A stretch of 64,000 nt of DNA from Phoronis australis (taxonomy: Eukaryota > Animalia > Phoronida). Positions 685-61,769 of the stretch are shown one piece after another. Both the position numbers and the translations under genes were made by a program. Where the stretch lies: positions 1 to 64,000 of the forward strand of contig NMRA01000996.1 of assembly GCA_002633005.1 (NCBI GenBank), written 5' to 3'. The notes beneath the pieces were generated by a model that did no database searches, was not told the origin of the DNA, and saw nothing but the letters and a program-made list of their open reading frames with translations. Numbering within the stretch: the first letter of the stretch is position 1; each line of letters starts with the position of its first letter.

Positions 685-969
685 CTGCTGTTTATCGGAT
701 TCCTTTGCTCACAAAAATGAGCCCCGCCTTTGTAAGTTGAGCCGGCAGTACTCAAAATCATAGGTTTGTCCGGTTTGCTACTAGATGACAACGTTACTCG
801 AGTATACATTTAATGACAGCTGAGTGNCTGCTGTTTATCGGATTCCTTTGCTCACAAAAATGAGCCCCGCCTTTGTAAGTTGAGCCGGCAGTACTCAAAA
901 TCATAGGTTTGTCCGGTTTGCTACTAGATGACAACGTTACTCGAGTATACATTTAATGACAGCTGAGTG
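685..969. other. Identical 142-bp direct duplication around a single N (likely assembly join)
   Basis: 685-826 = 828-969, separated by n at 827. Confidence 0.85.
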
Positions 970-4760: not shown

Positions 4761-4853
4761 ATGGCAAAAGAACGTACGAAAGCACGGATGTCTACTTCAC
4801 CAGTTGTGAACTGTATGAAAGTCCTGCTTTTTGGCTTCAATTTTATATTTTGG
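4761..4853 (+). CDS. TSPAN7: Tetraspanin exon 1 (N-terminus, start of TM1)
   Basis: ATG at 4761; MAKERTKARMSTSPVVNCMKVLLFGFNFIFW; donor gtgagt at 4854. Confidence 0.9.
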
Positions 4854-6072
4854 GTGAGTTATTTAATTGAAATTTATTTACACCAGGCATTCGACTACCA
4901 TTTCCTGCCACAACGGCAATGGTACTCTGGCAGTCTGGCCACTCAGAGCTCAGTCAAGTCGCGGATGCTGGCCTCGTTTCCTGCTATTAAACAGAACCTC
5001 TGGTTGGTTTGTCGTATAAGTGTACACGCTTTATTAGAACTTTGAATATGAAGAGGTTATTGTTTACAATCCGACTCCATTAACTTGACGTATAGTCCGG
5101 ATACCTATCGTCGTCAGGCTCCAAAGGTCGTCCGCCATCTTGTTTCGCGTGCAGCGCAACCACGCGGGACTTAGCGTTCCAATTTGGAGTGCTCGTCTGC
5201 ACGTTAGGTTCCAACCTCTCGGGAGAAACACGCATGGAAGAACTGAGACTAAAATTAGTGCATTTACCGACTGTTTTTTTGAGACCACTTAAAAACTTGT
5301 CGATTTTACTAATGCACTTTTTTGTTCATTTTCAGAAGATATTTTCGAAATTAAATTTCTTCAGACGGAACAAAAAGCAACTCAGGGATTTTCTATGCAA
5401 TGTATCTATTTGTCCCAGGCACTAACCGACACCTGTTAGGCCAAAGGAAAAACGCAGCAGACAAATGGAACACGCTTGGTGCTTAACAGTTTCGACCCAC
5501 GCCTTGGTCATCAAAACATTGTCCACTTGTTTTTTTATTGCAAAACACAGTACTGAGCTCGACATTTATGTTGAAATTTTTGATTAAAGCATTTTGAATT
5601 TATTTGAAGAAAATTAAAATACTTGAATTGATAGAGAATGGCCACCAATAAAGTAAAACATTGACTTTATTTCACTATATTGCATTGTTACATACAACAC
5701 AGCATGACATAATCAAAAATAAAAGAAGAGATTGAGCAATAAAATTCAAATGCGACTTGGGTATTTATTTATTTATTTATGATTGCATAAGCCTGTTAAA
5801 GATGAGAAAAAATCAAACAATACGATTATGGGTAATTTATTAGAACAATTGTATTGAGGTTCAATGATCAACTTGCGCCGACAAAGTCTCAAAGGGTTAT
5901 AGTTCTGTTCTGGCTGACAAGGTGTTAACAGAGAATGAAGAGAAACTGAAAAGAAAAAGTAAGACAGCAAAGATAAGTGGTGTTAAGTACAACAAGAGCA
6001 AAAAGTCAAATAAAGAGGTCACAAACAGAAATAAGTAAGGTATATCTGGAATAAAACAATCCAGGGCTCAGT

Positions 6073-6434
6073 NNNNNNNNNNNNNNNNNNNNNNNNNNNN
6101 NNNNNNNNNNNNNNNNNNNNNNNNNNNNNNNNNNNNNNNNNNNNNNNNNNNNNNNNNNNNNNNNNNNNNNNNNNNNNNNNNNNNNNNNNNNNNNNNNNNN
6201 NNNNNNNNNNNNNNNNNNNNNNNNNNNNNNNNNNNNNNNNNNNNNNNNNNNNNNNNNNNNNNNNNNNNNNNNNNNNNNNNNNNNNNNNNNNNNNNNNNNN
6301 NNNNNNNNNNNNNNNNNNNNNNNNNNNNNNNNNNNNNNNNNNNNNNNNNNNNNNNNNNNNNNNNNNNNNNNNNNNNNNNNNNNNNNNNNNNNNNNNNNNN
6401 NNNNNNNNNNNNNNNNNNNNNNNNNNNNNNNNNN
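6073..6434. other. Assembly gap
   Basis: Run of N. Confidence 1.
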
Positions 6435-6815
6435 CCCTTTCCTACGGAACGGGCACGCGAGAAGAAGGTGAACACCAGGATGTCTCGCATACAGGTCATC
6501 AACGTCCCTTGGTACCTTTACCACCACAACACAGGTGAACACAAGGTCGTCTCTGATACAGGTCCTTGACTCCTGGAACCTTCCACGCGCGCTGTCCCGA
6601 GGTCCGTGGGTACTAGTTGGCGGTGCTTCATCGGTAGATCATCCGTTTGCCGACTACGCCATTTGTAGTAATAGCCAAGATTACCCGACCCGGGGATCGA
6701 ACCCGCGACCCCCATAAAACCGGCAAGCGTGCTAACCATTCAGCTAGTAGGCAATTGCCCATTAGCGAGTAGCTAACAGAGGCTCATATAATTCACCGGA
6801 AGCACATCTACAACA
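6435..6815 (-). mobile_element. TRIM-like miniature LTR retrotransposon with tRNA-derived LTR (3' LTR presumably in the N-gap)
   Basis: On -: LTR TGTTGTAG...TTACTACA (6815-6664), AA spacer, PBS TGGCGTAGTCGGCA (6661-6648, complement of the tRNA-Ser 3' end), ~200 bp internal region, PPT AGGAAAGGG abutting gap 6073-6434. Confidence 0.8.
6683..6752 (-). ncRNA. tRNA-like Pol III cassette inside the LTR (not a functional tRNA)
   Basis: A box TAGCTGAATGG with D-stem GCT/AGC; B box GGTTCGATCC in a CGGG/CCCG T-stem; imperfect acceptor stem and no clean anticodon arm. Confidence 0.65.
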
Positions 6816-7744
6816 CTGATAAAATGAAATTCATAAAAAATAAACAAACTCATTCTTAAATCCACCTTACGTCCTAAAATTTTATAATTTATACTAACCT
6901 TTGTGAAGTTGGCCTTAAATTATTACTTCTAAGTTGGAAGTAATGTCCAAGCTTTAGCAAGAACTGAGTTTCTGTTATTGCTTGAGACCAGGCTGTATCG
7001 ACTTGTCGTACGTGTCATGTTATGTGCTGGGCCTTAAAAGTGTATTTGAAATGTCAGTACTTTTGATGCAGGTATCCATACAAGTCCTTGTTCACTCGGT
7101 GTTCTTTAACATTTTCATTAACCTTTTTTCACAGAAGTGATATATTTGAAGATGATAAAAATTCTGTCAAAGAAGCAAATTAAAGACTACTTTCCAAGGA
7201 CTATAAAACTGCATTGTCTTAACTTGTTGCTTACAACTCAAAGAAGAGGTTTTGTCTAGGCGTGGAAGGGATGATGAATCGACAGTAATGTCATTGCTTG
7301 GGGACATGGGGACAGTATATTGATCACCATTGGCAATTGATCAAACCTGATCTCGAGCTGTGTCCAACAAACTGTCAGTTCTTTCACGTAGAGCAGAAAT
7401 CACATCAAATTTATTCCACAGAACAAGTTGATATGATCGAATGCGTGAAAGTGATCTAAAAAATTCTAAGTGAGAGCACATAATTTTTTCAGCTTGATGT
7501 ATTAAGTTCGGTAACAGCGTACCAATATCAAGCTTGCGAACAAAATGTTGAGTCATGTTTTAACGAAACTTGGTGTAAAAGAAGTGTCTCCTAAGTATAA
7601 ACTCACTGATAAGAGCATATTTACACAAACCTGCATAAGCGGACATTTTTTTGTATTTGCTTTTGTCCGTGGTTAATGTTTCATTTCTGTCCTAGAATGG
7701 TCTGCCTTATGAAAAGAACTTCAGGAAATTGTCATCCTGAAACT

Positions 7745-8655
7745 AAGTGAGAATTTCTTAGGATTCCAGTGAGATTCCAATGAGAATCTAATTAATTAAG
7801 ATCCCATTCAAATTAGTAAGAAAAAAATCATTCTTGTGCGAATATAGTGATATTCCAGTGTGATTGCAATGAGAATCTAACTAATTTGCATAGCATTCCC
7901 ACTCAGTAAGAATTTGTGTCACTGAAAATCTCACTGAGTGAGAATCTCACTGGGTGACAATTTTGAACTTAGAATATTTTATCAGTGCCTTTTATAGCCG
8001 TTGACTGAATTAGATGAGAGTTGGTAACCAAAATGCTGCTTATTTTTGTGAGTTTATCTCGAAATTTGACTAAAGTTACAATTTAATTGCAATGATTAAC
8101 ATGGTGAAATACAGAAAACTTAAACTAACAATTTCATTGCTTTCTGTGAATTAGCAAAATTATACTAAAAACTCAGCTGCCAATACAAAGTGAATACTAA
8201 TCAGTCCAATACTGTTGCTTCATATGCTCTAGTAGATGTATGTCTAGGATCCCTCTGGTTGACTTGCAGACAAATTGTTCAGTGATTTCACAATATTTGT
8301 GAGAAAAACATCAACAATCTTCCAGCGATTTCTCTACTTCATCACAAGTGTTCATTCCTGGCACCATTTTATTTTGAATCAGAAATCTGGTCCAACTGAA
8401 ATTTCCACAGGAATAGCCAATGAGCCTGTTTGAATATCCTAACAGCTCAGTCTAATTTTTGCAAAACATAATTCTCACTCAATTCTCACTCAGAAATTTT
8501 GTAACTCAAAAATTTTCACTTAATTCCCACTTTTTCTTACTTTCCTTTGACTCCTTCAAATTCTCAGTGGATTCTCACTTGCATTTCTCACTCAAATGGT
8601 TCTTTAAGTGAAAATCTCACTGGAATGTCATTAGAATCCAGTGAGTTTCTCACTT
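7745..8655. mobile_element. ~0.9 kb foldback-like element with GTGAGAAT/ATTCTCAC subrepeats
   Basis: Left end aagtgagaa...ggattccagtgagattccaatgaga is an imperfect inverted match to 8612-8655; subrepeat orientation is mostly mirrored between the ends. Confidence 0.55.
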
Positions 8656-8985: not shown

Positions 8986-9780
8986 TTGAGCTAGGTTAAC
9001 TTTTCTGGTTAACACTTCAAACTGCCTTCGATACCTACTGAAATCCACTGTGTCAAAATTGGTCACTGCCAGTGGGGAGTATCAGCCAGATGGTTATAAA
9101 AAAGGTAAAAAATTGAGCTAGATCAATCCAAGAGGTAACCGCATGAAACCAGTTGCAAAATATTCACCGCGAGACAAGGTATCATGAATGAACACTGCCA
9201 GACGAATCTAGTGGTGGGTTAGCCCAGCCAGACACGCCCAAATATCTGAGTTGAGTTAGATCAACCTACCATGTAACCGTTTGAAACCAATTCCACGATG
9301 TTCAGCATCACTGTACATGGCACAACAGTTAGATGCCAGACAATTTCAGTGGTGGGGTGTTCCTGCCAGACGATTATCAAAAAGGGTTAAAAATTGAGCT
9401 AGATCAACCCAAGAGGTAACCACTTAAAACCAGTTGCAAAATATTCACCGTAAGCCCAGGTGCCACAAATAAACACTGCCAGACAAATCTAGTGATGGGT
9501 TAGCCCCTCCAGACACGCCCAAATACCTGAGTTGAGCTAGATCATCCCAAGAGGTAACGGAATGAAACCAGTTGCAAAATATTCGTCGTGAGGCCAGGTA
9601 TCAAGAATAAATACTGCCAGACAAATCTAGTGGTGGGTTATCCCTGCCAAATACGCCAAGTACCTGAGTTGAGCTAGACAAATCCACCAGGTAACCGTTT
9701 GAAATCAATTGCGCGGTGTTGACAGCACGTGGCACAACAGTAAGATGCCAAATAATTTTAGCGGTGTGGTGCCCCCGTCA
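8986..9780. repeat. ~138 bp minisatellite, about 6 units of two subtypes
   Basis: Units begin TTGAG(C/T)TAG at 8986, 9113, 9251, 9394, 9532, 9669. Confidence 0.85.
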
Positions 9781-12700
9781 GAAAAATGATAAGGAGTCGA
9801 AACAAAACTGGTTCTAAACCCATTCACGCTGAATAAGCATCACATTGAGAACCAGGCACTTCGATATTTAATAAAGCCAGTGAGTCCGTACGGCATAGGT
9901 CACCACACAAGGTGAGAGATTTTTGTCCGCAAGTTTACGTCAGGGCATGAAAACCAGAAATGTCGCGCCTGAGGTTTGAGCGACCTCACAAGTCTATGCG
10001 ACAACAGTGGAATACTCCATATGATTCACTACTAAAAATAAAACCGAAAATCCGTCTGTGACGGATGGCACATTGTGTATGCACGAATTTCGACTTTTCG
10101 TTGTCCTATTCTACCAGTCTAAACAATCCCCCTGTCTTCGGACAAATCATTTGATGCAACTGCTAAGACGAGGAATAATCTAAATGCCGTCTTTTGCTGT
10201 CGTCTGCGTAATGTATGCTCGCCAGATTACTTCCTTTCACATAGTGATTCATGTAAAATTTAGGAAAACTGATCAGTTTTGGACAATTTACATATTTCTT
10301 GTAAACCGAGCCTACAGAGAACTCCAGAGACACGTCAAGACCAATGACGTCAGTAGCTATATCGACAGTTTCCCCATCAATGCTAGATGTATTCTTTGCC
10401 CTGAATCGCCCAAAGTAGTCCCCAGATGGGGAACATTGTGGAAATAACGAGTCCTGATAGTTTTCCAGTTTATTTAGATTGACAATCATTTCATTGGCAC
10501 GACACAGATATGCGGACAATGGAACTGTTCATCTTTTCTCTTCATAGTGAATATAAAACGCGTTCAAATTAATTATTCATAGATCTGTATGTTGTATATG
10601 GTGCTCAGCCATCGTGCTGACCGCCCCAGGCATCCACATTGGGGGAGTGGGTATCCAACCACTATGTATAATCTATTTGGAAATTGCGTTTATGTTTCAC
10701 CTTAATTTACTTTTATTATTAATAGTTACAGCCAGGGGGGTTCGAGCAAACCCCCCCTCCCCCTCTGAAAAGGTCCAGCCCCAGCATATTCCTTAAAAGG
10801 TTCCTGAAGTACAATAACGTGCATTTTTAATGTAATTTAATTGATGAATAAAGTCTATATCGGAAATCACATTTTTTTACTCTTTCACATTTTGTAAAAA
10901 AGCGTTTTCCAATGGTAATCCCTGTTGGTTAATATGCGTCTGATGTCACTGAGGCTGTACTGTGGGTGAAGGCAATAAGATAAATTGCTTATTATGTACA
11001 TAGCTCATTGGGTGAATGCCTCTTGGCTACCCAACTGTGCTTAATGTATATAATTCATCTGTGATCTTGGCTCTCAAAAGTTCATAATAAATGAGTTTAC
11101 TGCTGTGTAGTGTTGAGTATAGTGGAACGATGCTGTTCTCAGCATGGGCCAGGAAGGGGCCCCCGAGTGTGATAGCCTTGCCTTGGTGCAAGCTGTATAG
11201 TAAATTTACAGTAGCTGTTACACCAGCGTGGGTATAAACTGATCATATAAAATTTGACAGAAAATTAGTGTCATTAGAAATTACACTCTTCCTGGAGTAA
11301 ACTAAATTATTTGCTGGTGCTGAAAAAAATTGGCATTCTGCCGTTCACTCTGCTGCTGAAATTTGGGTGCGCTCTTTAAGGTCGGCTTTCAGCGCCCTCA
11401 TGTGTTGCATGTCACAACAAATTATTAGAGCTGATTTCATTTCTTAACAAGTTTTTAATAGCAGGAAACCAAATTTCATAAAAAAATTTGCTCCTGCCAA
11501 GCTGTCATCATTTCCCGACAGATCACGCAAAATTTTAGGAAATGGCGCGTGTTGAGCGTACTGTTTTCTTTGTTACAAAAGGCTGAGAATTATGAAGTAA
11601 ATTAACGTTTACTAGATTGTTTTTTCAATTAAATGGCTTCAGCGGGCAAGGTGAGTGTCAGTTGACACCCAGATGTTTGCACACTCCCCTGCCGGTTGAG
11701 AGCTCTATGATGATGTAAGTTTCGTGACTAGGTGACGAGTAGAACTATCCAGCTTATGTAAAATTTCGGAGTGTAACGGAGCTCAACACACAGTGCTACT
11801 GGTACCTATTGTATTTTGAAGATAGTCCTCATACAGCTAGCTGGTTGGCTAGGCCCAGGTATGAATCAAAGTGACAGGAAAGAAAAACGAAAAACGTTGT
11901 GAGTATGCACATGTTGGTCTGTCAACTGGACTACATAGTCGCACGGCTAATGACATCTTTTTGTGCTGTGCAGCCTCAGTGACGTCACGAAAAATAGCGC
12001 TTGCAGTGGGGCTTTATGAAACTAATAATTTTTTACTTTTGGAAGTAAAAAAGAAAAATACTGTGCACTATTTAGGAATATGTGGATGCCAGTAACCAAC
12101 CTTTATACTTTAAAAATTCATATTAAAATGCTGAAACTTGTAGTTCAAGCCTCTTTTAACATGTGGAGAATTTCTCCCTTACACTGGTGACCACTCTGAT
12201 TCCCTAAGCCCCAGACAACTTTTAGGATGCCTATTCAGCACGCCCTTTGTATTGAAGTAGATCTGAGCAAATGAAGTGGAGAGGTAATTGCTTGCATTAC
12301 TGTCTCAACAATGGTTGTTGTTGATTCCTCCAATTTGGTTTTCTTTGACATTTGCAAAGTTATAGCAATAGCTCATTGGTTATAGCCTGCAACTCTGGAG
12401 AATAGTTTTAACTTGGTATGTTAAAATGACTAAAAAGGTTAACTTGTGTTTATCGTCACAAAGGGGCACTGCCCAAAGGAATGATAAGTTTCATATTGAT
12501 TTTCTTTATTTAATTTTTAATGCTTGTGTCCACTTGTGTTTTTTCCAACCGGGAACGGGTTGATAACTTTTTATCTAAGTTTTGAACTTTAAGTGCCAAA
12601 ACAGTGGTAAATTTTGATCGCCAGCTAAACTTAATTAGTTAACTTCATTGTGAGCCCATCCCTAAACTTACCACATTACAGGTACACTGAACATTTCACG

Positions 12701-32589: not shown

Positions 32590-33123
32590 TCTTCCAACTT
32601 GGTCATGAAAAATAACATTTCTAAAGCGAAAGTCCGCCCCGTTGCACAGTGTAGTGTTGTGAGTTTGTATGCCCTATGAACGAATGTCTTCGTTCAAACG
32701 TCAAACAATGTTACATTGGTCAAACGGTTTGCAGTCTTTCCCGTCGGTTATCCATGCATCTTCAAAATGGCGCCATTCAAGATCATTTTCTGCAATGCCA
32801 CGCACGTAAAATCACCCGTCAAGAAATTGTGGAAAACACGTCAATTTGCTACGTGGAGCAAGATGTGCTGCGTTTGAAAGTATTAGAGTCCCTTTTAATT
32901 GCTTTTGAGAAGCCTGTTTTGAATGAGCAGCAAACAGGGTCGCGCCGCACGTTACACTTGTTTGCGTGACTTTCCTGTTACCCCAATTCATTAGTCATTC
33001 TTTGCAGTATTTCACACTCGCCGTGTCTCACTGTTTGTGTCGTCAGCTTATACTCTGTGGTGGCATTACTGCGTCATTTTATCTTCACTTAAGAATGAAA
33101 CAAGTATGTTTCGAAATATCGTG
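32590..33123 (+). mobile_element. 5'-truncated Penelope-like element (GIY-YIG endonuclease end plus 3' terminal repeat region)
   Basis: ORF 32676-32969 has C...YIGQT...LSRRL..H...L..LESL.I...KP.LN.Q; upstream frameshifted SNLVMKNN...VV/EFVCP; no RT domain present. Confidence 0.85.
33086..33123 (+). ncRNA. Minimal type-I hammerhead-ribozyme-like motif (degenerate core)
   Basis: CAC-TTAAGAAT-GAAACA(AGTA)TGTTTC-GAAA-TA-TC-GTG: stem I CAC/GTG, perfect 6-bp stem II, GAAA, minimal stem III; lies ~120 nt after the Penelope stop codon. Confidence 0.55.
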
Positions 33124-34486: not shown

Positions 34487-35363
34487 CTGAAATGTAGAAA
34501 GTGAACATTTTGATATTGGTTAATATTATAAAGTCAAATTGAGGATACAATTTTAAATTAACAACAGTCATCAATAGAACCCTACTTAGACACCCTGACC
34601 GGTCGAGTTTGGGGAAGTCGACCGGTTTGTTTACCTCGAAATCTACCCGCCGGCGATAATCAAAGCCACCCTGTTGTTGCAGTTTATTATATCTTCCCAG
34701 ACCACTGTTGTTACCCTTGGGTCGACAATAGTATTTTTTAAATTTCGGTTTGTAAATAACATATTTGAATAGTTCGTGAAAAGCACGTCGTGATTAGGTT
34801 TTTCGATTTTGAAAAATGGGCGAGAATGTGACTTTTACTACAGTGTACCTAAACCCGTATGTTTAATGTTGCCATAATACGGTCCTCATTAATTCTGCTG
34901 GGTGTGTTACTTAATTAGGCTAATTACCAAACCACCAGGCAACAGTTGGATTTTGAGGTAAGACAAGTGTCATCCACCGTACAATTCTTGCCATGTTGCA
35001 AGGTAATTAAATCAGATGCATGACTTATCCGGTGCAACTTGATTCGACGACCAGCTGATTGAGACCAGTTACTCGTTTCAGGAGGAGACAGTTTTACTAA
35101 ATTTTAGAAGCGTGTAACACATGGCATCTTTCTGTACCTGACAGAAGTACTAGCGAATGTATTATTATTATATAAAAATCTCTCTGAATAGGTGCTTGCG
35201 TTGTGGGTCACATTTTATGACTTTGTTAAATCTACTGCGTTGAAATTGTGTCCGACGGATTTACGGTTTTATTACTTGGCAATTGAATTAAACTTCTGAT
35301 TACTGGTAGGTTAATTCAACAGTTTTTCTAAAAGTGTTTTCATTATGAGAAGTTAAACGTTTT

Positions 35364-35430
35364 TGTTATTTGACCCTGTTAGCTACAGTCACAGATTTTC
35401 TGTGACTGTAGCTAACAGGGTCAAATAACA
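35364..35430. repeat. Perfect 32-bp inverted repeat with 3-nt loop
   Basis: TGTTATTTGACCCTGTTAGCTACAGTCACAGA-TTT-TCTGTGACTGTAGCTAACAGGGTCAAATAACA. Confidence 0.97.
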
Positions 35431-36065
35431 GAATGTTAATCACTTATTATTTTGCGATGTTAGCCCAGCAACATTTTATCATTTATGGGAAGGTGGTTGT
35501 AGCTTTGTTTTTTCGTGAAAACTAAGAAAAACATTTATAAAGTATTATCTCATTGTTCACAAGAACAAACATGGCTACTCGGGCTTTTCCAACTTGTTGA
35601 AATACGCAATGGCTGCCACATTCAATGACAAATAATGGCCGTGGTGGCAGAAAATTCACGTTAAAAGGATACCACATCCGGTTTTAGCCTATTCACAGAT
35701 ATCAAAATCGACACATCCTGTTCTCTTAGACAAACTACATGTACATGCAATTATCAATAACGCTCGGTAACACTCAAAAGTTATACAGCAAAACTTGAAA
35801 ACTCCTTACGAAGTCGCGAAAAGGGGCAACCAGGACGAGAAGTAGGCTTTAGGTGATTTGCATGTAAACGACAACTAAGAAGCATAATTTTCAATCGGTG
35901 ACGCAGACACTTGACGCGTTTTCAGTTGCAACTGTTCAAGAAGGACGCCAATAAAACATTATGTGACAAAACGAGTACTGTTTGAAATAACCAAAACATG
36001 GTTAAGTATCCTTTCAAATAACACTAAAATGAACTCGTGTGTACCAAGATCAGATCATACCATTT

Positions 36066-39501: not shown

Positions 39502-39729
39502 ATTAGAAACATTGTCTAAAACATACATTCACGTTTCAAACCACATATGAGGCTGTGACTGCGTAGGGTTCCAATCAGGGGCCCGTTCAGACGGCCTTGT
39601 GTGTTTCCACTGCAGACTATTATAACGCATGTGTTGTCAAATGAAGGTGCTTCGCGGTAATATACCGAGAGGTTACCGACCCACCTTCGCGTCAAAGTAA
39701 ACTACATTTACATGTACAAAGACATTTAC

Positions 39730-41260
39730 CTAATAAGATCTCCTGAAGATCGTTGAAAAACAGCGCCGCTTTCTGTCTCTGTTGAACATCGAAATCCCTA
39801 ACGTCCTTTAAAAATCGTTCCCTCCTATATTCTTCACGGCGAGACGGAAGTTGGAAGGAAGATCTCTTGTAGGGATTCAGCTCCGGCAGATAATCACCGG
39901 ATTCGTCTTTTTGGTAAACTAAAACAGTTTCCTTGTTAAGCTGCTCCTTAAATACTTCTTCTTTTCGTTTTTTCTTGAGTTTATTTAGTTTGACCAGTGA
40001 CACGGACTTATTGGACACTGGCGCAGACAAACTGGAGGCACTGTCATGTTGCGCGTGCTGACCTGACAACCAGGCTTCGTCTTCTTCTACCCTACTATTT
40101 GTGTCGTCATTGACTTGAAATGTGCGACATGATGATTTTTTCGTATCATCATTAGTAAACACATTTTTCTCGACATGGTGTTGATCAATCGAGTCGTCAT
40201 TCTTACAAACAGACAACGTGTTGTTATCAACGATTGAGTGGTCGTTGATAACAGAAATGTTTGTTTTCGAATTAACCCCCGCCTGGTGCTTTTCGTCCGT
40301 TTGTTCGTTCTTTTCTTGATCGCACGACTGTAAACTGCACCCGTCCTCCGTTACAGGATCTAATGTACTGTGTCTTAGCATGGCAGTTTTAAGATACATT
40401 GACCCCGTTCTAACTAATTTGACTGTTTGATTGGAAGTAACTGTTTTTATTTGACCATCACTTCGATCACGATGAGGTATGACAGGCAACACGTTATTGT
40501 TAGGATTTGTGCTATGGTTATCAAAAACGGCATTCAGGTCGGACCCTGTGCTCGTTGAAAATTCCATATCCTCTCCTGGAATTTTTTTACGACTTTCGAC
40601 CGAGTCAGATTCACTTTTGCCTTTTATTAGCTGAGGAAAAGTTTCACTAGTAGATTGAGTCGCAGTTGCGTTTGCAGAAATCCCGGCGACGGTTGTCTGG
40701 CGTTTTTGGCAATCATCTTCTTCACCCTTGTCATTTTCTTTCTGGACTGTAGGCTCTGTTGCTTCCACAACACTACCTAAGTTTCCCCCCATTGTCTTGC
40801 CACGGGCTTTCTTTTTATTTGCCTCTTCACGGGTGTCACCAAACATTTTAAGCACGCTACTTTTTCTTTCAGTTTCTTTGTCGCTAGAGAAATTCAGGTT
40901 CGCTTCAATTTTTGCTCTCAGTTTTTCTTGTTCTTTCTTGTATGCTTCTTTCTGTAGAACCTTCTTCTCCTTATTCACCCGCAACAAAGTCTTGTACATA
41001 TTTTCTTGGTCTTTTCTCAAGTTGTTCAAAACAGTTTTTTGTTGTTTGTACCAGAAGTCCAACTGTTTTGTCAAGTCCTTGTGAGCAGTTGTGTTGAACG
41101 ATTGGACTGACGAACTGAATTCTTTCCTGTTTACTGCGTGAGCCTTCTTCAAATCGTGAAGCCTGTCTCCGTTCATTTTCCCTAAAGCGCCGTTCATTTC
41201 AGTCCGTTTGTTATACCGGACCGGAATGGCCGGTTCTCGCCAGTGAGCCATCGTTGTCAT
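39730..41260 (-). CDS. Uncharacterised protein exon 1 (N-terminal coiled coil plus long charged disordered region)
   Basis: Long stop-free ORF (528 codons in the track); first ATG at 41260; donor TTAG|gtaaat, phase 1. Confidence 0.85.
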
Positions 41261-41297
41261 CCCTATAGTACGGCACACGAGGCGACTTACTGAGGAT

Positions 41298-41396
41298 GTT
41301 CCCAGGAACGTTCTAACTGAAATATGTTCCTTTCCATACTTTCCCGAGTCTTGTAGTTAAATTCTCGGCCGAAACTATACAAACTAAATGACGTCA
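41298..41396 (-). promoter_or_regulatory. Putative promoter motifs upstream of the uncharacterised gene
   Basis: Full palindromic CRE TGACGTCA at 41389-41396 and X-box-like GTTCCCAGGAAC at 41298-41309; motif match only. Confidence 0.3.
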
Positions 41397-44665: not shown

Positions 44666-47600
44666 CCATTTTTCATTTTGTAGTTTGCACATCCATAACT
44701 CCACTGCTTGATCTGATGGGATAGCATCCGCGTACCCAACCTAAAATATAGGGGGCTCGAATTCTTCGATATGCGGACCTTTTACTGAAAAAAATCAACG
44801 AGGACGACTAGGTTCACACCTGCCACTCATGAATCCGTGCCAAATTTCTGTGAACTTTTGTCTCGTTTACTCGGAATTTTTATTTCGCTGTGCCCAATTC
44901 GATCCCCCCCCAGCCCCCCTGGGTGCTTCCATGGATAGAGCATTTCAAGGTCAATCAGAGTTTTGCGACATATTTCTCTCTATGTTTAATTGTTTTTGAG
45001 TTACTCCAAATTTTCCGAGGACTGTTCAGCAAATAACAGAGTTTTGTACCTAATATCGTCGGCGTCCTTTGACGGATTTGTCAGAAATTTGGTACGACAG
45101 ATCTGTCAAGCGATTTCAGCATTACATAACGCGTTTCTTCCTGCTACATGCCCTTCTCACGATGTTCAAGATTTGCTGCTTTAACGATTGTTCTTTTATT
45201 GACTCATCACTTTTCGTCTGATACACATGAAATTGAAGAACAACGTTTTTTATTTAGTCAGTGGCTTGAGAGCTTTTACTTTTTGCGAAATCGGACTCGA
45301 GATGGCGCTGTGACGACCATTCTAGCTCTGACCGAACTTTTTCAAATTTGTTTTTAAACAGATCACCTAACGGTCTATCTAATACGCTGGTGTACTAGGT
45401 CCTGTTTATTGATGATCTTGATTTCGTCGTCGACTTCAACTTTAAATTTTTATTCAATTTCGCCAAGTGTTGCTGCACAAAGAGCTTTGATTTTGATTTG
45501 TTTATTCGATGACACACTTGTAAAAGAAAAGAGATATCAATAAATATAAATATCCAATACACAATTCAGCGACATTTACTAAACAAATATTAGAATACGC
45601 ATATTACCAGGATCGAACAATGGATTTGAACGACTGAAAAACGGACAAAAACTTCATTCCGTGCTAATTCATACAAAATATACAATGTGAACCCGCGCTC
45701 TGCTATGAGTATCCCGATTTCGGCTAGTCGGGATACAGCCGTGTCCCTATCAGTTTGGCAGCGAGAGCAAGGGAAAAAGTTGGCAAACCAATGTTTACAT
45801 AGTCCAGCCCGCTTCTTATTGTCTAAGTTCATCTGATAAGCGCATGCAATCCAGCAATTATGGTGTCAACAGCACGCCTTACACTAACCAGTATTTAAAA
45901 ATACTATTTCCAAACTACGTTCAACAAATGTCGTGGAGATGTGCTTTGTATGAAATACTATCATCAAAAAGTTTGAACAGAAAAAAACAATCGACTTTAG
46001 GAGAAATTAGACTGAACTTTCACCTGCCGATTCCTTTGTGTAACTGCAAGCTCTGACCCAGCTTAATACATGTACCACAGCGTTGTGTACCCACACAATA
46101 GAGGTTTTTGTCAAGTTTAATCGAACGTGATACTAGATTTGATCGTGATGTTTGAAATTTCTTGGTTTTATGGTGCTGAAATTACCTTGATCGGCAGAAT
46201 ATTCAGTATTCCGACAAATGCGAGAGCACATGCTCTCGATCAGACGAGCCTCGTGCAATACAGTGAAATTCTCTCGATTCTAGAATCTGTTTCTGCTGAT
46301 AAGGCGCTACCAAAAACAGAACTTTTATGATTTTCTTGAAAAACCGAAACCGAAATCATAGTAGTTAGAAAACCATAAAATCTTTGTTGAGATTGTATCT
46401 TGAACATATATATCAAATGGATTTTGGTCCTAGTGTTGATGCCGTTGGTTTGCTGTCAATGTACTTTTCTTTTTTTGATAAAGTTTGCCAAAAACACATG
46501 ATCACGTGGCTCAGTTAATGTTCACCGTGATTGTTAAAACTTTAAAACTGAAATTTTACAGGAATTCCAGTTGCAGGAAGAACTTTTACTGAGTTAAATA
46601 AGCAGACTTTTCACAACGCTTGACACTTATCCTCGTGTCGTCTTTCAGTTTTATTTTGAACTAAGCAAGTTTAGAAAGGATTAACGCATTTGATATTACC
46701 CGTCTTTATTATATTAAAATGAAAGGTAACAACCAAGGTTTTCAGGCATCTGCTTAATGTCAATTCAAAACACCTTGGAAGTTCCTGCCGCCATAAAATA
46801 CCTTATTCATGATTACGGAAATATTCGACCTGTTCCGAGCATGATTACCCACTCCCCAGTTTGCCTTTTAGAACAAGGTGGCACTTAACAGTTAGGCTGC
46901 AGCCACGGGGCATTTTCTAGTCCCTAGAATTGATGTGCAGGGCGTATGTCAGGTTTGGCTGGTTGTTCGAGGAATTTGTTGAAAAAAGTTGCCAGGAAAG
47001 TGAGTTGCTTGTATTTTTGAATGAGAAAATCCATTTTTTTAGCCTTGACCCACTTTCCCTGCAAAATGGTGGCTGTCGCTTGCCTTCAACCCCTGTTGCC
47101 TGCTGACCGAGAAAACGGGTGCGATTTCAGGTGGCTGTCAGACAGATCCAAATTGCGAAAAAATAGCTAGTAAGGGGCGTACTATGACCACATTTTTAGA
47201 ATCTAGAGAGTGCGAGCATTCTGAATCTGTAGTCGGATTTTCCCTAGCACTTGCAGGGAAGTGGCAATATTGAGGAGAAAACTGTCAAATTTGGTGTTTT
47301 TTGGTATATTTTTGTGTGCCGGGATTATTTTTTTGCCGATGAGAATTAACCGGTAAAAAATCTGTGGCGTAAGTAAGTTTCAGTTGTCACGAGTAGTGCT
47401 TGTGAGTTGGGAATGTTACAAAACCCTTTTGTTTTTTCAGACATTCGATTAGCACGTAATGAAAGGGCCCATCTGTACTTCGGTGTGCGTCGGCAGCCAA
47501 AAGCCTGTTGTAACTGTAGGTGTGCCCCCATAGTTGGTTTCGGCCTTGTAAACAGCTTCTGCAAGTAAGAACTGCGTCGTTGAAACAGTCCATCAACAGC

Positions 47601-47932
47601 GCTTTAATCTGTGTCCTTTTTTGTGTTCAATGCATTCGTAATTCTTAAGCACAGACGTTATTTCCACCTTTCGTTGACTTTGTATTACGTCAATGCATCT
47701 TTGTGGATCTTCTGAACGTGAGATTTCGGACTTCGCTTCAGGAAGTGGCAACACAGCTCAAATAAAACAATGCCGATATTTTCAAGAAGTTCAGCGGCCG
47801 TGAGCAGGCTTGCTCCAATGCACAGTCCAAGATTTCCACCCAAATCAGCTAAAAATGTACAAAGCAAGACGTTCAAAACCGTAACATGAATATACTGAGA
47901 ATGCATCAAATTTAAAACAACTGAACAAACAT
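44666..47932. repeat. ~3.3 kb tandem duplication, copy A
   Basis: Colinear and highly similar (scattered SNPs and small indels) to 48084-51358. Confidence 0.95.
47685..47848 (-). CDS. Second copy of DEG/ENaC exon 8 (allelic haplotype or duplicated alternative last exon)
   Basis: Intact acceptor catttttag| and ORF of the same length (164 nt); 3 aa changes, all in the tail (Q>R, N>H, T>A). Confidence 0.6.
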
Positions 47933-48083: not shown

Positions 48084-51000
48084 CCATTTTTCATTTTGTA
48101 GTTTGCACATCCATAACTCCACTGCTTGATCTGATGGGATAGCATCCGCGTACCCAACCTAAAATATTGGGGGCTCGAATTCTTCGATATGCGGACCTTT
48201 TACTGAAAAAAATCAACGAGGACGACTAGGTTCACACCTGCCACTCATGAATCCGAGCCAAATTTCTGTGAACTTTTGTCTCGTTTACTCGGACGTTTTA
48301 TTTCGCTGTGGCGGACCTTTTTGCCCAATTCGAGCCCCCCAGCCCCCCTGGGTGCTTCCATGGATAGAGCATTTCAAGGACAATCAGAGTTTTGCGACAT
48401 ATTTCTCTCTATGTCTAATCGTTTTTGAGTTACTCCAAATTTTCCGAGGACTGTTCTGCAAATAACAGAGTTTTGTACCTACTATCGTCGGCGTCCTTTG
48501 ACGGATTTGTCAGAAATTTCAGTGGTACGACAGATCTGTCAAGCGATTTCAGCATTACAAAACGCGTTTCTTCCTGCGACAAACCCTTCTCACGATGTTC
48601 AAGATTTGCTGCTTTAACGATTGTTCTTTTATTGACTCATCACTTTTCGTCTGATACACATGAAATTTAAGAACAACGTTTTTTATTTAGTCAGTGGCTT
48701 GAGAGCTTTTACTTTTTGCGAACTCGGACTCGAGATGGCGCTGTGACGACCATTCTAACTCTGACCGAACCTTTCCAAATTTGGTTTTTAAATAGATCAC
48801 CTAACGGTCTATCTAATACGCTGGTGTACTAGGTCCTGTTTGTTGATGATCTTGATTTCGTCGTCGACCTCAACTTTTTTGTTCAATTTCGCCAAGTGTT
48901 ACTGCACAAAGAGCTTTGATTTTGATTTGTTTATTCGATGACACACTTGTAAAAGAAAAGAGATATCAATAAATATAAATATCCAATACATAATTCAGCG
49001 ACATTTACTAAACAAATATTAGAATACGCACATTACCAGGATCGAACAATGGATTTGAACGACTGAAAAACGGATAAAAACTTCATTCCGTGCTAATTCA
49101 TACAAAATATACAATATGAACCCGCGCTGTGGTATGAGTATCCCGATTTCGGCTAGTCGGGATACAGCCGTGTACCTATCAGTTTGGCAGCGAGAGCAAG
49201 CGAAAAAGTTGGCAAACCAATGTTTACATAGTCCATCCTTCTTATTGTCTGCGTTCATCTGATAAACGCATGGAATCCAGCAATTATGTTGTAAACAGCC
49301 CGCCTTACACTAACCAGTATTTAAAAATACTATTTCCAAACTACGTTCAACAAATATCGTGGAGATGTGCTTTGTATGAAATACCATCACCGAAAAGTTT
49401 GAACAGAAAAAAAAACGATCGACTTTCGGAGAAATTAGACTAAACTTTCACCTGCCGATTTCTTTTTGTAACTGCAAGCTCCGACCCAGCTTAATACCAC
49501 AGCGTTGTGTACCCACACAATAGGGTTTTTTTTTGTCAAGTTTAATCGAACGCGATACTAGATTTGATAGTGATGTTTGAAATTTCTTGGTTTTATGGTG
49601 CTGAAATTACCTTGATCGGCAGAATATTAAGTATTCCGACGTATGCGATTCGAGCACATTCTCTCGATCAGATGAGCCCCGTGCAATACAGTGAAATTCT
49701 CTCGATTCTAGAATCTGTTTCTGCTGATAAGGCGCTACCAAAAACAGAACTTTTATGATTTTCTTGAAAAAACGAAACCGAAATCATAGTTAGAAAACCA
49801 TAAAAGCTTTGTTGAGGTTGTATCTTGAACATACATGTATATATCAAATGGATTTTGGTCCTAATGTTGATGCCGTTGGTTTGCTGTCAATGTACTTTTC
49901 TTTTTTTTGATAAATTTTGCCAAAAACACGTGATCACGTGGCTCAGTTAATGTTCACCGTGATTGTTAAAACTTTAAAACTGAAATTTAACAGGAATTCC
50001 AATTGCAGGAAGTACTTTTACTGAGTTAAGTAAGCAGACTTTTCACAACGCTTGACACTTATTCTCGTGTCGTCTTTCAGTTTTATTTTGAACTAAGCAA
50101 GTTTAGAAAGAATAAACGCATTTAATATTACCCGTCTTTATTATATTAAAATGAAAGGTAACAACCAAGGTTTTCACGCATCTGCTTAATGTCAATTCAA
50201 AACACCTTGGAAGTTCCTGCCACCATAAAATACCTTACTCATGATTACGGAAATACTCGAGCTGTTCCAAGCATGATTACCCACTCCCAAGTTTGCCCTT
50301 TAGAATTAAGGTGGCACTGAACAGTTAGGCTGCAGCCACGGGGCATTTTTTAGTCCCTAGAATTGATGTGCAGGGCGTATGTCAGGTTTGGCTGGTTGTT
50401 CGAGGCAGTTGTTGAAGTTGCCCGGAAAGTGAGTTGTTTGCATTTTTGAATGAGAAAAGCCATTTTTTAGCCTTGACCCACTTTCCCTGCAAAATGGTGG
50501 CTGTCGCTTGCCTTCAACCACTGTTGACTGCTGACCGAGAAAACGGGTGCGATTTCAGGTGGCTGTCAGACAGATCCAAATTGCGAAAAAATAGCTAGTA
50601 AGGGACGTACTATAGCCACATTTTTAGAATCTAGAGAGTGCGAGCATTCTGAATCTGTAGTCGGATTTTTCCTAGCACTTGCAGAGATGTGGCAATTTTG
50701 GGGAGAAAACTGTCAAATTTGGTGTTTTTTGGTAATATTTTGTGTGACGGGATTTTTTGCCGATGCGAATTAACCGGTTAAAAATCTGTGGCGTAAGTAA
50801 GTTTCAGTTGTCACGAGTAGTGCTTGTGAGTTGAGAATGCTACAAAACCCTTTGTTTTTTCAGACATTCGATTAGCACGTCAGGAAAGGGCCCATCTGTA
50901 CTTCGGTGAGTGTCGGCAGCAAAAAGCCTGTTGTAACTGTAGGTGTGCCCCCATAGTTGGTTTCGGCCTTGTAAACAGCTTCTGCAAGTAAGAACTGCGT

Positions 51001-51358
51001 CGTTGAAACAGTCCATCAACAGCGCTTTAATCTGTGTCCTTTTCCGTGTTCAAAGCATTGATAATCTTTGAAGAGCACAGGCGTTATTGGCACCTTTCGT
51101 TGACTTTGTATTACGTCAAGGTATCTTTGTTGATCTTCTGAACGTGAGATTTCGGACTTTGCTTCAGGAAGTGGCAACACAGTTCAAATAAAACAATGCC
51201 GATATTTTCAAGAAGTTCAGCGGCCGTGAGCAGGCTTGCCCCAATACACAGTCCAAGATTTCCACCTAAATCAGCTACAAATGTACAAAGCAAGACGTTC
51301 AAAACCGTAGCATGAATATACTGGGCATGCATCAAATTTAATACAACTGAACAAACAT
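48084..51358. repeat. ~3.3 kb tandem duplication, copy B
   Basis: Starts immediately after the N-gap 47987-48083; colinear with 44666-47932. Confidence 0.95.
51111..51274 (-). CDS. DEG/ENaC exon 8 (TM2 with GAS filter, short C-tail), proximal copy
   Basis: catttgtag|; (T)DLGGNLGLCIGASLLTAAELLE...KDTLT-TAA. Confidence 0.93.
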
Positions 51359-56816: not shown

Positions 56817-57639
56817 CTGTCAATTAATAGAAACTTATAATGAAAAGCGATACAGCATTGGGGAATTTTTTCTGAAGACGGCGTGGTGATTTGGTCTTCA
56901 AAGTTTCACTCGGGCTAGAAGGTGGGAAACGATATAAGCTTTGCTCCAACGTGGGACAAAGGCACATCTAATTTCGCCGCTAAGATCGATAGGAACGCGA
57001 GACGTTGGGATCGCCATCTCCCGGTGCATTTTACTATAATTGTTTATCGTTTTGCCAATTACGGGGTCGATATGTAAACGTCAGTCTCCGAAAGGTGGCG
57101 CAACTACTAAATAATGGCATTAGATATCTTAATCACGCATATGTTCAAACTACTCATGTTCGTCTGAGTACTAACTCATGATAAATGATTGAATAAGTGG
57201 TGCTTTTATCTACGTCGGCCGGTGTATCGGGCATACCAATGGCGTAAAGTAACGGGTCCGATGTCCGACGATGGAGCCTCAGTTTATGCCGTTTCCACCT
57301 ATGTTCAAGTTATTTTGAAACCTTAAACTTACTTTACGTTGGATAGCTAGTAAGATTTTTGGTGACTTAGACAAATGCGTTACTAGTATGGAAACAACGA
57401 TGCTTCCCGATTTCCGGTATATTTTCTTGCTTGCAAATGCTTTGTCGTTCACCTGATTTCCTAGGTTAAATAATATTCACTTGGATAAACTTTCGACTTG
57501 GTACAGCGATACGTAGTGCTTTACCGTGAATGTCCATTGCATTATATCAATGAACAAGAAATTTTAGTAGTCATAAAACGATGATTTTTACTGCTTCCTA
57601 TGCTTTTGTACGCGAACTGAATGCCATGACAACACTTAC

Positions 57640-57817
57640 CTGGATCGTACATGTAGATGTATTTGCACCCGCATTTCTGTTTAGTGTAGTTAGCGCGACA
57701 CTCTCTACGACACCCCGTCAAACTGTAGGGTTTGTAGTTTTCCAAATGGTTCACAAAATCTTCTTTGGTAGTGTTCTTGCATTTCCCACCCTCATATGGC
57801 AACGGGAGAGACTTTAT
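57640..57817 (-). CDS. DEG/ENaC exon 4 (thumb, Cys-rich)
   Basis: ttgcag|; IKSLPLPYEGGKC...YSLTGCRRECRANYTKQKCGCKYIYMYDP; donor gtaagt. Confidence 0.95.
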
Positions 57818-57996
57818 CTGCAATTGATGTAGGGATCGCAAAGGCATGTTTTTATGTATTTTAGGTATTGAGGTCTTACTTTCGAATTAACCCACGGGGA
57901 ATGCAAGGCACATTCGGTTTCAGGGCCGAAACTTGCAATGTAGGGATACGATAGATTCTTGAGGTTATTAACATAGAACAAACCAATGTAACACGA

Positions 57997-58411
57997 ACAC
58001 CTGGGCTCGGTCTCCAATCTTTTTACTCGAAATGGAACTCAAAATTAGTTTTGGCATTTTCTATTCTACTTTTGGGCGAACTCAAGAGAAGTGTCTATTA
58101 TTCTATGCTCGAGTACACAATAACTTACGTAGATAATTTATTGCCCTTAGTTCACAGTTTGTAAACCCAATATTAAAGCAATAATTTCGAGTTTGAACTC
58201 GAAATTTCGAGTTTTTACTCGAGTTTATAGCACGAACATAAGGGTCTTCAAGGGCAAACTTGAACTAGAAACTCCTATGCATACACTGTAATGTATTCGA
58301 GCACAGTCTGATAACCAAGTATCTTAAGTTCGCACAAAAGGAGCAGAGAAATTGCCAAAAATAGTTTCGAGTTCGCTTCGAGTACAAAGATTAGAGACCG
58401 GGCCGTGGTGT
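57997..58411. mobile_element. ~415 bp foldback MITE (channel intron 3)
   Basis: Long imperfect TIRs GGCTCGGTCTCCAATCTTTTTACTCGAA / TTCGAGTACAAAGATTAGAGACCGGGCC; many CTCGA/TCGAG subrepeats. Confidence 0.75.
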
Positions 58412-58666
58412 ACCCGGAAGGTGAGGTAGGGATTACCGATGCCTCCCTGGTTGTACTAGTCCTACAGTAATACCACGGTGGGTAATTTGTTTGCAGAAAG
58501 TATCCAATGAACTCCGGTACATTTTCGTGATTTCATTAGAAGTATCAAATTCCTCAAGTACATTGAGGCATCCAGCCACTATATCTGCACTGAATCGAAG
58601 CCTGTGACCTCGTGTGCTCTTTGAAATGAACAGCGGTTGTCGAGTAGTCCAAGTAGAACTGCAGTC

Positions 58667-58833
58667 CAGGCGTGCGTTCAGTTGACGCTAGGTCCTACGG
58701 TAGGACCTAGCGAAAACCTAGTCAAAGTCACGTGTTCTCATTTACATGTAAAATGCGCAGCAATATCTCACGTAATCTCGTGAAGTCTTGCTCTTTAGCG
58801 AGGTCCTTGCGTTACTGAACGGGAGGCAGGTTA
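58667..58833. mobile_element. ~150 bp MITE-like repeat, copy 2 (channel intron 3)
   Basis: Shares aagtcacgtgttctcat...aatatctcacgtaatctcg...gttactgaacgggagg with 188-340. Confidence 0.7.
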
Positions 58834-59080
58834 ACGTGGGCTCGTTTGTCATCCAAGCACTTTATATCCCTAGTATCAGTGAGTTTGTGTCGGTAGAGCA
58901 ACCTTCGAATTGACCAACAAGTCAACTCGAATACCGATATCTACATGTAGACGTACGTCATTATGAAGATTTGTACGTGCCACGTACAAATCTTCATAAT
59001 GACAACAAACAACTTGCCTCGTACGCTAAATCAAACTCAGCAGTAAACAAGCGCCATTATTACACTTTACTTAACTGTAC

Positions 59081-59179
59081 CTCTTTGATCTGCACTGAGA
59101 CAAAAGTTTCCTGTCCGGGACTTATGGCAAACCCAAGTTCATTAACGAGTGGTTCTTCGTCGTGGTTGTGCAGAGCAAC
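59081..59179 (-). CDS. DEG/ENaC exon 3
   Basis: cttatag|; VALHNHDEEPLVNELGFAISPGQETFVSVQIKE (matches ASIC-type H-x-x-x-E-P...LGF-x-x-x-PG-x-x-T-x-V); donor gtacag. Confidence 0.92.
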
Positions 59180-59427
59180 CTATAAGTAATCAACATCAAA
59201 CAATGTTAACTGGGACAACGCCAGTTCAAGCTGTGTGAAATGGACGGTTTCTCTTTCATCTTTACTACCTTAAATCGATGCAAAATTTAATCTTAAACCT
59301 TCAATTTCACTATCACCACTTATCAGTAAGGCGTTAAAGCAAAAGCAGCAGATAAATGTATGTTGCCCGTCTTGGTGCATAATAAGACGTTCATGAAAGA
59401 CACCGTATAAATATTTCTTACACTCAC

Positions 59428-61551: not shown

Positions 61552-61769
61552 CTTCGTCCCGGATTGTGCTTCGCTCCACCGAAATACTGTACGCCGTGGC
61601 AGGAAGTCTCCTCAGCGTACTTTGTTACCCCTTCTTTGACAATTGATAAGACGGTGCCTGACTCAGGCGCCCCTTCATCTTTGTTGTCGCTCTCTTTTTG
61701 ACCGTAGGGCGCAATTGGCGTCACTTTGGTGGCCCAGATATCATTGGAAGATTTGAATCCCTTCGGCAT
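61552..61769 (-). CDS. DEG/ENaC exon 1 (N-terminus with HG motif)
   Basis: ATG at 61769; acceptor ttattgcag| 8 nt upstream implies an earlier non-coding exon; ...YAEETSCHGVQYF...GRR; donor gtatgt. Confidence 0.9.

What the first reader, a model, noticed from the sequence alone, without database searches (positions are those of the whole stretch)
6435..6815. Miniature LTR retroelement whose LTR carries a tRNA-like Pol III promoter, primed by tRNA-Ser
Seen on -: a 152-bp TG...CA unit containing A and B boxes in a partial cloverleaf; then 2 nt; then 14 nt exactly complementary to the tRNA-Ser 3' end including CCA (plus GGAT after a 3-nt insert); ~200 bp of non-coding internal sequence; and a purine tract running into an N-gap where a second LTR would collapse. 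Established: TRIMs with small-RNA-derived LTRs exist (Cassandra with 5S; a tRNA-bearing group reported as Helenus, from my recollection). Inference: this is a SINE/LTR hybrid, possibly a new family. It lies antisense in tetraspanin intron 1 and may produce Pol III transcripts there.
Basis: partly seen in the sequence, partly recalled or inferred. Interest (0 to 1): 0.7.

Follow-up and report, generated by a model that had tools for sequence, protein, structure and literature searches.

The report
Helenus mini-retrotransposon with tRNA-like LTRs
This is one copy of a multi-copy, gene-less miniature LTR retrotransposon whose end repeats carry tRNA-gene promoter boxes; it is a new family of a kind described in 2024 (Helenus) and likely copies itself with enzymes borrowed from a Gypsy element, so it is a good new example and not a new kind of element.

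Summary
The anatomy is real: a 152-bp LTR (6664-6815, minus strand) with A and B boxes, a 14-nt tRNA-Ser(AGA) primer site, 229 visible bp of non-coding interior and a purine tract at the gap, antisense in a tetraspanin intron. Public reads settle the class for the family. The purine tract runs straight into a second LTR in all 8 runs laid, LTR ends border many different flanks, and two solo LTRs show 4-bp target duplications (ends paired by inference). It is a Helenus-type TRIM (Kojima 2024), not a SINE, and matches none of the published families I read. This copy's own second LTR and TSD lie in the gap and were not seen. RNA-seq shows no start or end pile-up, so Pol III transcription is untested, not shown. 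The extra: a hairpin plus palindrome just before box A is shared, by eye, with bivalve, nemertean, coelacanth and fish Helenus, which hints at one ancient animal lineage and a cis signal I did not find described. This scan already noted Helenus-like elements in other genomes.

The parts
6664..6815 (-). 5' LTR, 152 bp, TG...CA
   Evidence: Sequence. Loose ends pile up at 6663/6664 and 6815/6816 with mixed flanks in DNA and RNA runs.
6762..6776 (-). Short hairpin (5-bp arms, 5-nt loop) upstream of the tRNA-like part
   Evidence: same position as the hairpin in many animal Helenus LTRs, by eye.
6750..6759 (-). Perfect 10-bp palindrome just before box A
   Evidence: same position as palindromes of other sequence in animal Helenus LTRs, by eye.
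6736..6746 (-). Pol III type 2 box A-like motif
   Evidence: fits the TRGCY..YGG of Helenus (PMC10886601).
6716..6719 (-). The only run of four T in the visible element; candidate leaky Pol III terminator (inferred)
6693..6703 (-). Pol III type 2 box B-like motif with a T-arm-like hairpin
6648..6661 (-). Primer-binding site, 14 nt, complementary to the 3' end of tRNA-Ser(AGA); 4 more matching nt at 6644-6641 after a 3-nt insert
   Evidence: same site follows the LTR end in 15 of 15 loci; no deletion of the insert in 10% or more of reads (table 4).
6435..6663 (-). Non-coding internal region (229 bp visible; 234 bp in family copies) with a 32-bp direct repeat, 84% alike, at 6466-6497 and 6533-6564
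   Evidence: joint 6815 to 6435 with 5 letters between.
6435..6443 (-). Visible part of the polypurine tract
   Evidence: in family copies it continues 5 more purines straight into the LTR start.
6073..6434 (.). 362-N assembly gap, expected to hide the end of the PPT, the 3' LTR and the second TSD
   Evidence: no contig bridges it (table 8 as shown).
6816..6819 (+). Predicted 4-bp target-site duplication of this copy (CTGA on +); its partner was not seen
   Evidence: inferred from the 4-bp TSDs of two other copies.
4761..4854 (+). First coding exon of the host tetraspanin gene (context); next exon at about 17195
   Evidence: exon 1 called by eye.

Best explanation
It is one copy of a multi-copy, non-coding LTR-PBS-interior-PPT-LTR element of about 540 bp (a Helenus-type TRIM) that likely moves with the proteins of a Gypsy retrotransposon and is likely transcribed by RNA polymerase III from the tRNA-type boxes in its first LTR. 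Shown: the LTR ends, the boxes, the Ser primer site, the PPT running into a second LTR in family copies, many different flanks, and RNA that contains the element. Shown by paired ends, not by one read: 4-bp TSDs at two solo LTRs. Inferred: Pol III starts just before box A, reads through the single T4 of the first LTR in a share of cases and stops in the second LTR, which gives the terminal redundancy that reverse transcription needs; tRNA-Ser primes the minus strand, the PPT the plus strand; a Gypsy integrase inserts the copy; LTR-LTR recombination leaves the many solo LTRs. This copy is most likely a passive passenger in a tetraspanin intron.
For: Joint 6815 to 6435 with 5 purines between in 4 of 4 DNA runs (summed depth about 49, 68 and 22 times the flank in X1, X4, X2) and in 4 of 4 RNA runs (16, 22 and 10 reads and one contig). 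One 416-nt RNA contig holds LTR part, PBS, interior, PPT and LTR part in one record with 8 other letters (table 8). Loose ends at both LTR ends with agreement about 0.4, so many flanks. 2 of 2 copy-specific pairs of loose ends shown give a 4-letter duplication and not a 5-letter one: GGGC/GGGC (114 and 95 reads, X8) and CTTC/CTTC (22 to 48 reads, X6-X8; left end shown in X6 and X8); a random 4-letter match has chance about 0.005. Summed depth on the LTR is 1,600-4,000 times the flank in X1 and on the interior 200-400 times, more than the 2:1 of intact elements. 15 of 15 metagenome loci with an LTR end plus this primer site are longer elements of about four families; 3 of 15 were scanned and gave gag zinc knuckle, RT then RNase H, and integrase C-terminal domains, which fit Gypsy-type elements. 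Animal Helenus have 4-bp TSDs and Gypsy-type primer sites (PMC10886601).
Against: No contig bridges the gap, so this copy's 3' LTR and TSD are unseen. The TSD pairs are linked by run, strand and read number only; one lies in a G run and the other needs a changed terminal letter of the LTR; 118 loose-end rows were not shown. RNA: no place where many molecules begin or end; 68-75% of laid reads run on into unlike sequence; both strands are covered and the LTR is covered more on the antisense side. That fits passive carriage in host transcripts. No Gypsy partner was shown in this host (no genome held). Summed contig depth is no copy number. The DNA runs are at most 2 samples of 1 study and may be the source of the window.
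Confidence: 0.78

Rival explanations
1. The same TRIM, but transcribed by Pol II (own U3 promoter or read-through from host genes); the tRNA-like boxes are a relic or serve another purpose.
For: No start or end pile-ups; most RNA reads continue into host sequence. A T4 lies between boxes A and B and would stop part of Pol III before the primer site. Kojima reports no experimental test of the Helenus promoter.
Against: Boxes A and B are kept at tRNA-like spacing while the cloverleaf is lost. The library selection is unspecified and short non-polyadenylated RNA may be lost. Presumed sense reads are 10-40% deeper downstream of box A than upstream in 3 of 3 runs, a weak hint open to edge effects.
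Confidence: 0.15
2. This copy is not a complete monomer: the gap hides a tandem LTR-interior array or a copy cut by the neighbouring high-copy repeat.
For: The PPT end plus one LTR fills only 157 of 362 N; the left side of the gap is another high-copy repeat. The 416-nt contig equals one 386-nt unit plus 30, a collapsed cycle that cannot tell monomers from arrays. Arrays are reported for LTR-11_DR and Cassandra.
Against: A second unit needs 543 bp, more than the 362 N, though gap sizes are estimates. This concerns the locus only and leaves the family verdict unchanged.
Confidence: 0.25
3. An ordinary tRNA-derived SINE, or a tRNA pseudogene next to chance motifs.
For: A and B boxes and high copy number are also SINE traits.
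Against: About 65 bp lie upstream of box A inside a sharply bounded TG...CA unit; both ends are fixed across copies; a primer site, a PPT-to-LTR joint and 4-bp TSDs are present; no A-rich or microsatellite tail in the loose ends shown.
Confidence: 0.02
4. A retrozyme-like element whose LTR carries a self-cleaving ribozyme and which travels as a circular RNA.
Against: Rfam scans at E<=10 gave no ribozyme family; only about 30 nt follow box B in the LTR.
Confidence: 0.04

Closest known systems
Helenus (TRIMp3), Kojima 2024, PMC10886601 (read: main text parts 1-4 and 6 of 6; supplement parts 1, 5, 6, 7, 9, 10, 11 of 11; motif searches over the whole supplement)
   Same: Non-coding TRIM in the 311-1263 bp range; tRNA-like A and B boxes in the LTR without a working tRNA; primer site for a tRNA 3' end; PPT; 4-bp TSD as in animal families; many solo LTRs. 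Size is close to mussel families (e.g. LTR 144-156, interior 226-268). The hairpin plus palindrome before box A matches bivalve, nemertean, coelacanth and fish families by eye.
   Different: The primer is tRNA-Ser(AGA); the Ser sites in Fig. S2 are of the TGA and GCT types with other sequences, and the first 9 and 13 letters of this site have 0 hits in the supplement (line breaks can hide hits). No family sequence I read resembles the interior. Parts 2-4 (mostly fungal) and 8 (wasp) of the supplement were not read. The paper's main text does not mention a hairpin or palindrome.
Cassandra (plants) and Ajax (nemerteans): TRIMs with 5S rRNA-derived LTRs (PMC10886601; PMC7215508, passages only)
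   Same: Small-RNA promoter inside the LTR of a non-autonomous LTR element; Cassandra starts in the 5' LTR and ends in the 3' LTR, the model used here.
   Different: 5S type 1 promoter (boxes A, IE, C), not tRNA type 2; Ajax has 5-bp TSDs and a Leu primer.
Gypsy-type LTR retrotransposons with a tRNA-Ser(AGA) primer site (loci L001-L015)
   Same: LTR end, 1-3 nt and the same primer site; candidate class of helper.
   Different: Coding; an unbroken 18-nt primer site; no tRNA-like LTR seen; no similarity to this element beyond about 40 nt around the primer site; from other animals.
biv-TRIM of bivalves (PMC6934838, passages only)
   Same: Animal TRIM with inverted repeats and palindromes.
   Different: No canonical primer site; its inverted repeats are in the interior, not before a box A in the LTR.

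Membership tests
Helenus (TRIM with tRNA-derived LTR) | Short, non-coding element | tested here: met
   Unit of 386 bp, full length about 538 bp from the joint; no ORF of note in six frames.
Helenus (TRIM with tRNA-derived LTR) | Two LTRs around an internal region (family level) | tested here: met
   PPT-to-LTR joint in 8 of 8 runs; one contig with both junctions.
Helenus (TRIM with tRNA-derived LTR) | Second LTR and TSD at this very copy | tested here: inconclusive
   362-N gap; no contig shown bridges it.
Helenus (TRIM with tRNA-derived LTR) | tRNA-like sequence in the LTR with box A (TRGCY..YGG) and box B (GGTTC) | tested here: met
   against the definition.
Helenus (TRIM with tRNA-derived LTR) | No working tRNA encoded (most families) | tested here: met
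   ARAGORN 0 genes, no Rfam tRNA hit, fold z -0.09.
Helenus (TRIM with tRNA-derived LTR) | Primer site for a tRNA 3' end right after the 5' LTR | tested here: met
   14 nt match to tRNA-Ser(AGA), 2 nt after the LTR.
Helenus (TRIM with tRNA-derived LTR) | PPT right before the 3' LTR | tested here: met
   Purine tract continues into the LTR start in family copies.
Helenus (animal) | 4-bp target-site duplication | tested here: met
   2 of 2 readable solo-LTR pairs, ends paired by inference.
Helenus (animal) | A Gypsy element of the same host shares the primer site | not testable with these tools
   No genome held; seen only in other animals.
TRIMp3 | Transcription by RNA polymerase III | tested here: inconclusive
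   No start or end pile-ups in 3 RNA-seq runs of unspecified selection, 18-19% of each read.
A published Helenus family | Sequence identity with a family in Data S1 | tested here: not met
   No match by eye in parts 1, 5, 6, 7, 9; 0 hits for six short motifs of the element; parts 2-4 and 8 searched by motif only.
tRNA-derived SINE (SINE2) | tRNA head at the 5' end, simple-repeat tail, variable TSD, no PBS or PPT | tested here: not met
   Fixed TG...CA ends, PBS, PPT-to-LTR joint, 4-bp TSDs.
Retrozyme | Self-cleaving ribozyme in the LTR | tested here: not met
   No ribozyme family at E<=10; an undescribed fold would be missed.

The most novel reading that the evidence does not exclude
The hairpin plus palindrome just before box A is a conserved cis signal of one ancient animal Helenus lineage that spans fish, coelacanth, bivalves, nemerteans and this host, against the published view of separate origins. 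Its letters change while its self-complementarity is kept, so it would act as RNA structure: a dimerization or packaging signal at the transcript's 5' end, or a 3'-end signal that is complete only when Pol III enters the second LTR from upstream. That would explain how a Pol III LTR element makes terminally redundant RNA.
Probability: 0.3. Interest if true: 0.62.

Novelty: new member of a known kind. Interest (0 to 1): 0.38.

Why it matters
It adds a multi-copy, fairly young Helenus family (this copy differs by about 2% from an RNA contig) with a primer type not listed for the group, in a host whose channel proteins have no relative above about 41% identity over the aligned part among the best hits. 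The class is known, so the surprise is small. The value is in the testable part: nobody has shown Pol III transcription for Helenus, and the shared hairpin-palindrome gives a concrete target for asking how these elements start, stop and get packaged, and whether animal Helenus have one origin. Such repeats can also inflate tRNA gene predictions and break assemblies, as at this gap.

Tried and rejected
No whole genome is held, so copies could not be counted or dated. Only one copy lies in the window. A 25-nt family motif had 0 matches in viral contigs and genome contigs; the metagenome scan gave only coding elements of other animals. No listed holder was on record as RNA, which says nothing on expression. 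RNA depth is zero at 6835-6914 beside this copy: a part without cover, not used as evidence. The sense-strand step near box A is too weak to count. Host placement failed: three word-based protein searches gave 0 hits; the Atlas did not hold the query; the best named ASIC-like hits were sea stars at 34-38% identity, but a quick tree of 60 of 61 rows, drawn from the best 60 of 150 hits, put the query in an unstarred group (SH-aLRT 85) with two nemertean and one bryozoan sequence. So the phylum is open and no 'new host phylum' claim is made. Hairpin plus palindrome alone is not rare (13 sites on both strands of the window) and the pattern was defined after seeing it; only its position before box A and its recurrence in Helenus count. 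Helenus sequences were compared by eye and by short motif searches only; no alignment, tree or covariation test was run on them. Repbase and Dfam could not be searched. Searches for later Helenus work listed no paper that adds families or the hairpin; most subscription papers are not in the library.

Full report
Observation. On the minus strand: a 152-bp unit at 6815-6664 that begins TG and ends CA; box A at 6746-6736 and box B at 6703-6693; 2 nt; a 14-nt site at 6661-6648; a 3-nt insert and 4 more matching letters; 229 bp of non-coding interior; a purine tract at 6443-6435; then 362 N. The A+B pair is the only one in the window, against 0.003 expected from 300 shuffles. The primer site equals the start of a published tRNA-Ser(AGA) antisense probe (PMC13478228, passage; also PMC3299991, passage). 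The tRNA-like part is not a tRNA: ARAGORN found none, Rfam none at E up to 10, and it folds like its shuffles. Tetraspanin exons match Pfam at about 17.2 and 24.2 kb; the first coding exon at 4761-4854 is called by eye. The element is antisense in the first coding intron.

What the family looks like. No genome is held, so I laid public runs of the same species. In 4 DNA runs (at most 2 samples, 1 study, possibly the window's source) the summed contig depth on the LTR was 1,600-4,000 times the flank in X1 and on the interior 200-400 times. The tool warns that this is no copy number; I read it only as 'many copies, with an excess of LTRs'. Loose ends pile up at exactly 6663/6664 and 6815/6816 with agreement near 0.4, so the unit borders many different flanks. 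A joint from 6815 back to 6435, with 5 letters between that are purines on the element strand, stands in 4 of 4 DNA runs and 4 of 4 RNA runs. The purine tract therefore runs straight into a second LTR, and the family is LTR (152) - interior (234) - LTR, about 538 bp. One 416-nt contig of X5 holds both junctions with 8 other letters; 416 is one 386-nt unit plus 30, so it is probably a collapsed cycle and cannot tell monomers from arrays.

Target-site duplications. Among the loose ends shown, two pairs are copy-specific (agreement 0.75-0.94). In X8 the left flank ends in GGGC (114 reads) and the right flank begins with GGGC (95 reads). In X6-X8 a second pair reads CTTC on both sides (22-48 reads), if one terminal letter of that LTR is changed. 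A fifth letter fits in neither. These are solo LTRs inside host transcripts. The ends are paired by run, strand and read number, not by one read; the other rows shown are mixtures or single contig ends and cannot be read, and 118 rows were not shown. Animal Helenus have 4-bp TSDs. This copy's own second LTR and TSD lie in the gap; no contig shown bridges it, and its left side is another high-copy repeat. PPT end plus one LTR would fill 157 of the 362 N.

Helper. A scan of metagenome contigs for an LTR end followed by this primer site gave 15 loci. None is this family; all 15 continue into longer sequence of about four families. I scanned ORFs of 3 of 15: gag-type zinc knuckles, RT followed by RNase H, and integrase C-terminal domains, which fits Gypsy-type elements. 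So the primer site is a real Gypsy-type site, but no helper was shown in this host.

Transcription. Three RNA-seq runs (one study, selection unspecified, 18-19% of each read) gave 666, 612 and 620 reads, about 52-56 per million records. There is no place where many molecules begin or end. 68-75% of the reads run on into unlike sequence. Both strands are covered. If the libraries are of the usual stranded kind, the interior is 1.3-2.7 times deeper in sense and the LTR deeper in antisense, largely from a few solo LTRs in host RNAs. At 6555, 180 of 182 reads carry another letter than this copy, and at 6747, 707 of 726, so this copy is not the source of the RNA seen; the individuals differ from the window's and may lack it. 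Pol III transcription is thus neither shown nor excluded.

Mechanism. The best-supported reading is a TRIM that is copied by the ordinary LTR route with borrowed Gypsy proteins: tRNA-Ser primes, the PPT primes the second strand, an integrase leaves 4-bp duplications, and recombination leaves solo LTRs. The promoter step is inferred from the kept boxes and from Cassandra, which starts in the first LTR and ends in the second (PMC10886601). The visible element has a single T4, between the boxes. If it is a leaky terminator, the molecules that pass it in the first LTR and stop at it in the second have the terminal repeat that reverse transcription needs. A Pol II route with relic boxes is the main rival.

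Comparison with what is known. The element meets every Helenus feature that could be tested for the family (see membership test). I read parts 1-4 and 6 of 6 of the paper and parts 1, 5, 6, 7, 9, 10 and 11 of 11 of its supplement. No family there has this primer site or interior, and six short motifs of the element had 0 hits in the whole file (line breaks can hide hits). It is a new family of a known kind. The scan's own notes list Helenus-like elements in several other genomes (unchecked) and none for this sequence. The host phylum could not be settled.

The extra. Just before box A the LTR has a 5-bp hairpin (6776-6762) and a perfect 10-bp palindrome (6759-6750). Reading the supplement by eye, a palindrome at the same place, mostly after a hairpin, is present in about 33 of 51 bivalve families, 3 of 3 nemertean, 2 of 2 coelacanth and the ostariophysan fish families (hairpin in 13 of 14), and absent from 18 bivalve, 3 Lingula and 1 ctenophore family (string counts). 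The palindromes differ in sequence (for example GGGAATTTCCC, GGGTTAACCC, GGAAGTACTTC there, GGCAATTGCC here) but stay self-complementary or nearly so. The paper's main text has 0 occurrences of 'hairpin' or 'palindrom' and proposes separate origins for fish and mollusc Helenus. Palindromes were suggested to mediate Ty1 RNA dimers (PMC4974528, passages). This is a by-eye pattern without alignment statistics, defined after seeing it, and hairpin plus palindrome occurs 13 times in the window by itself. I give the single-origin, functional-signal reading a probability of 0.3.

Verdict. Observation confirmed; interpretation partly supported; new member of a known kind; interest 0.38.

Noticed in passing
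window 5500-6050 (probably from about 5080 to the gap at 6072): A second high-copy repeat on the other side of the gap (summed depth about 270-2,300 times the flank in X1); AT-rich, class not identified.
   Followed up: partly
window 6959-6994: A 36-bp piece that also occurs in an expressed host transcript, with the same flanks in all four RNA runs.
   Followed up: no
window 6466-6497 and 6533-6564: A 32-bp direct repeat, 84% alike, 67 bp apart, inside the element's interior; some family copies have deletions of 38-54 bp nearby.
   Followed up: partly
window 44666-47932 and 48084-51358: A 3.3-kb direct duplication, 94% alike, across a 97-N gap, each copy with an ASIC-like last exon: tandem duplication or two uncollapsed haplotypes.
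   Followed up: no
window 685-826 and 828-969: An exact 142-bp duplication around a single N, likely an assembly artefact.
   Followed up: no
window 57542-62102, minus strand: ASIC/ENaC-like channel exons (Pfam ASC) whose best relatives are only 34-41% identical.
   Followed up: partly
window 32655-32969: Short ORF with a weak GIY-YIG match below Pfam's cut-off (E 3.5e-4); perhaps a Penelope-type fragment.
   Followed up: no
window 39692-41356, minus strand: A 554-codon open frame with no Pfam match.
   Followed up: no
window 35361-35433, 58957-59003, 8606-8655; 9072-9782: Three short near-perfect palindromes and a degenerate tandem array.
   Followed up: no
L002, L004, L013, L014, about 30-60 nt before the LTR end: These Gypsy-type LTRs carry a second, partial copy of the Ser primer-site word inside the LTR.
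   Followed up: no
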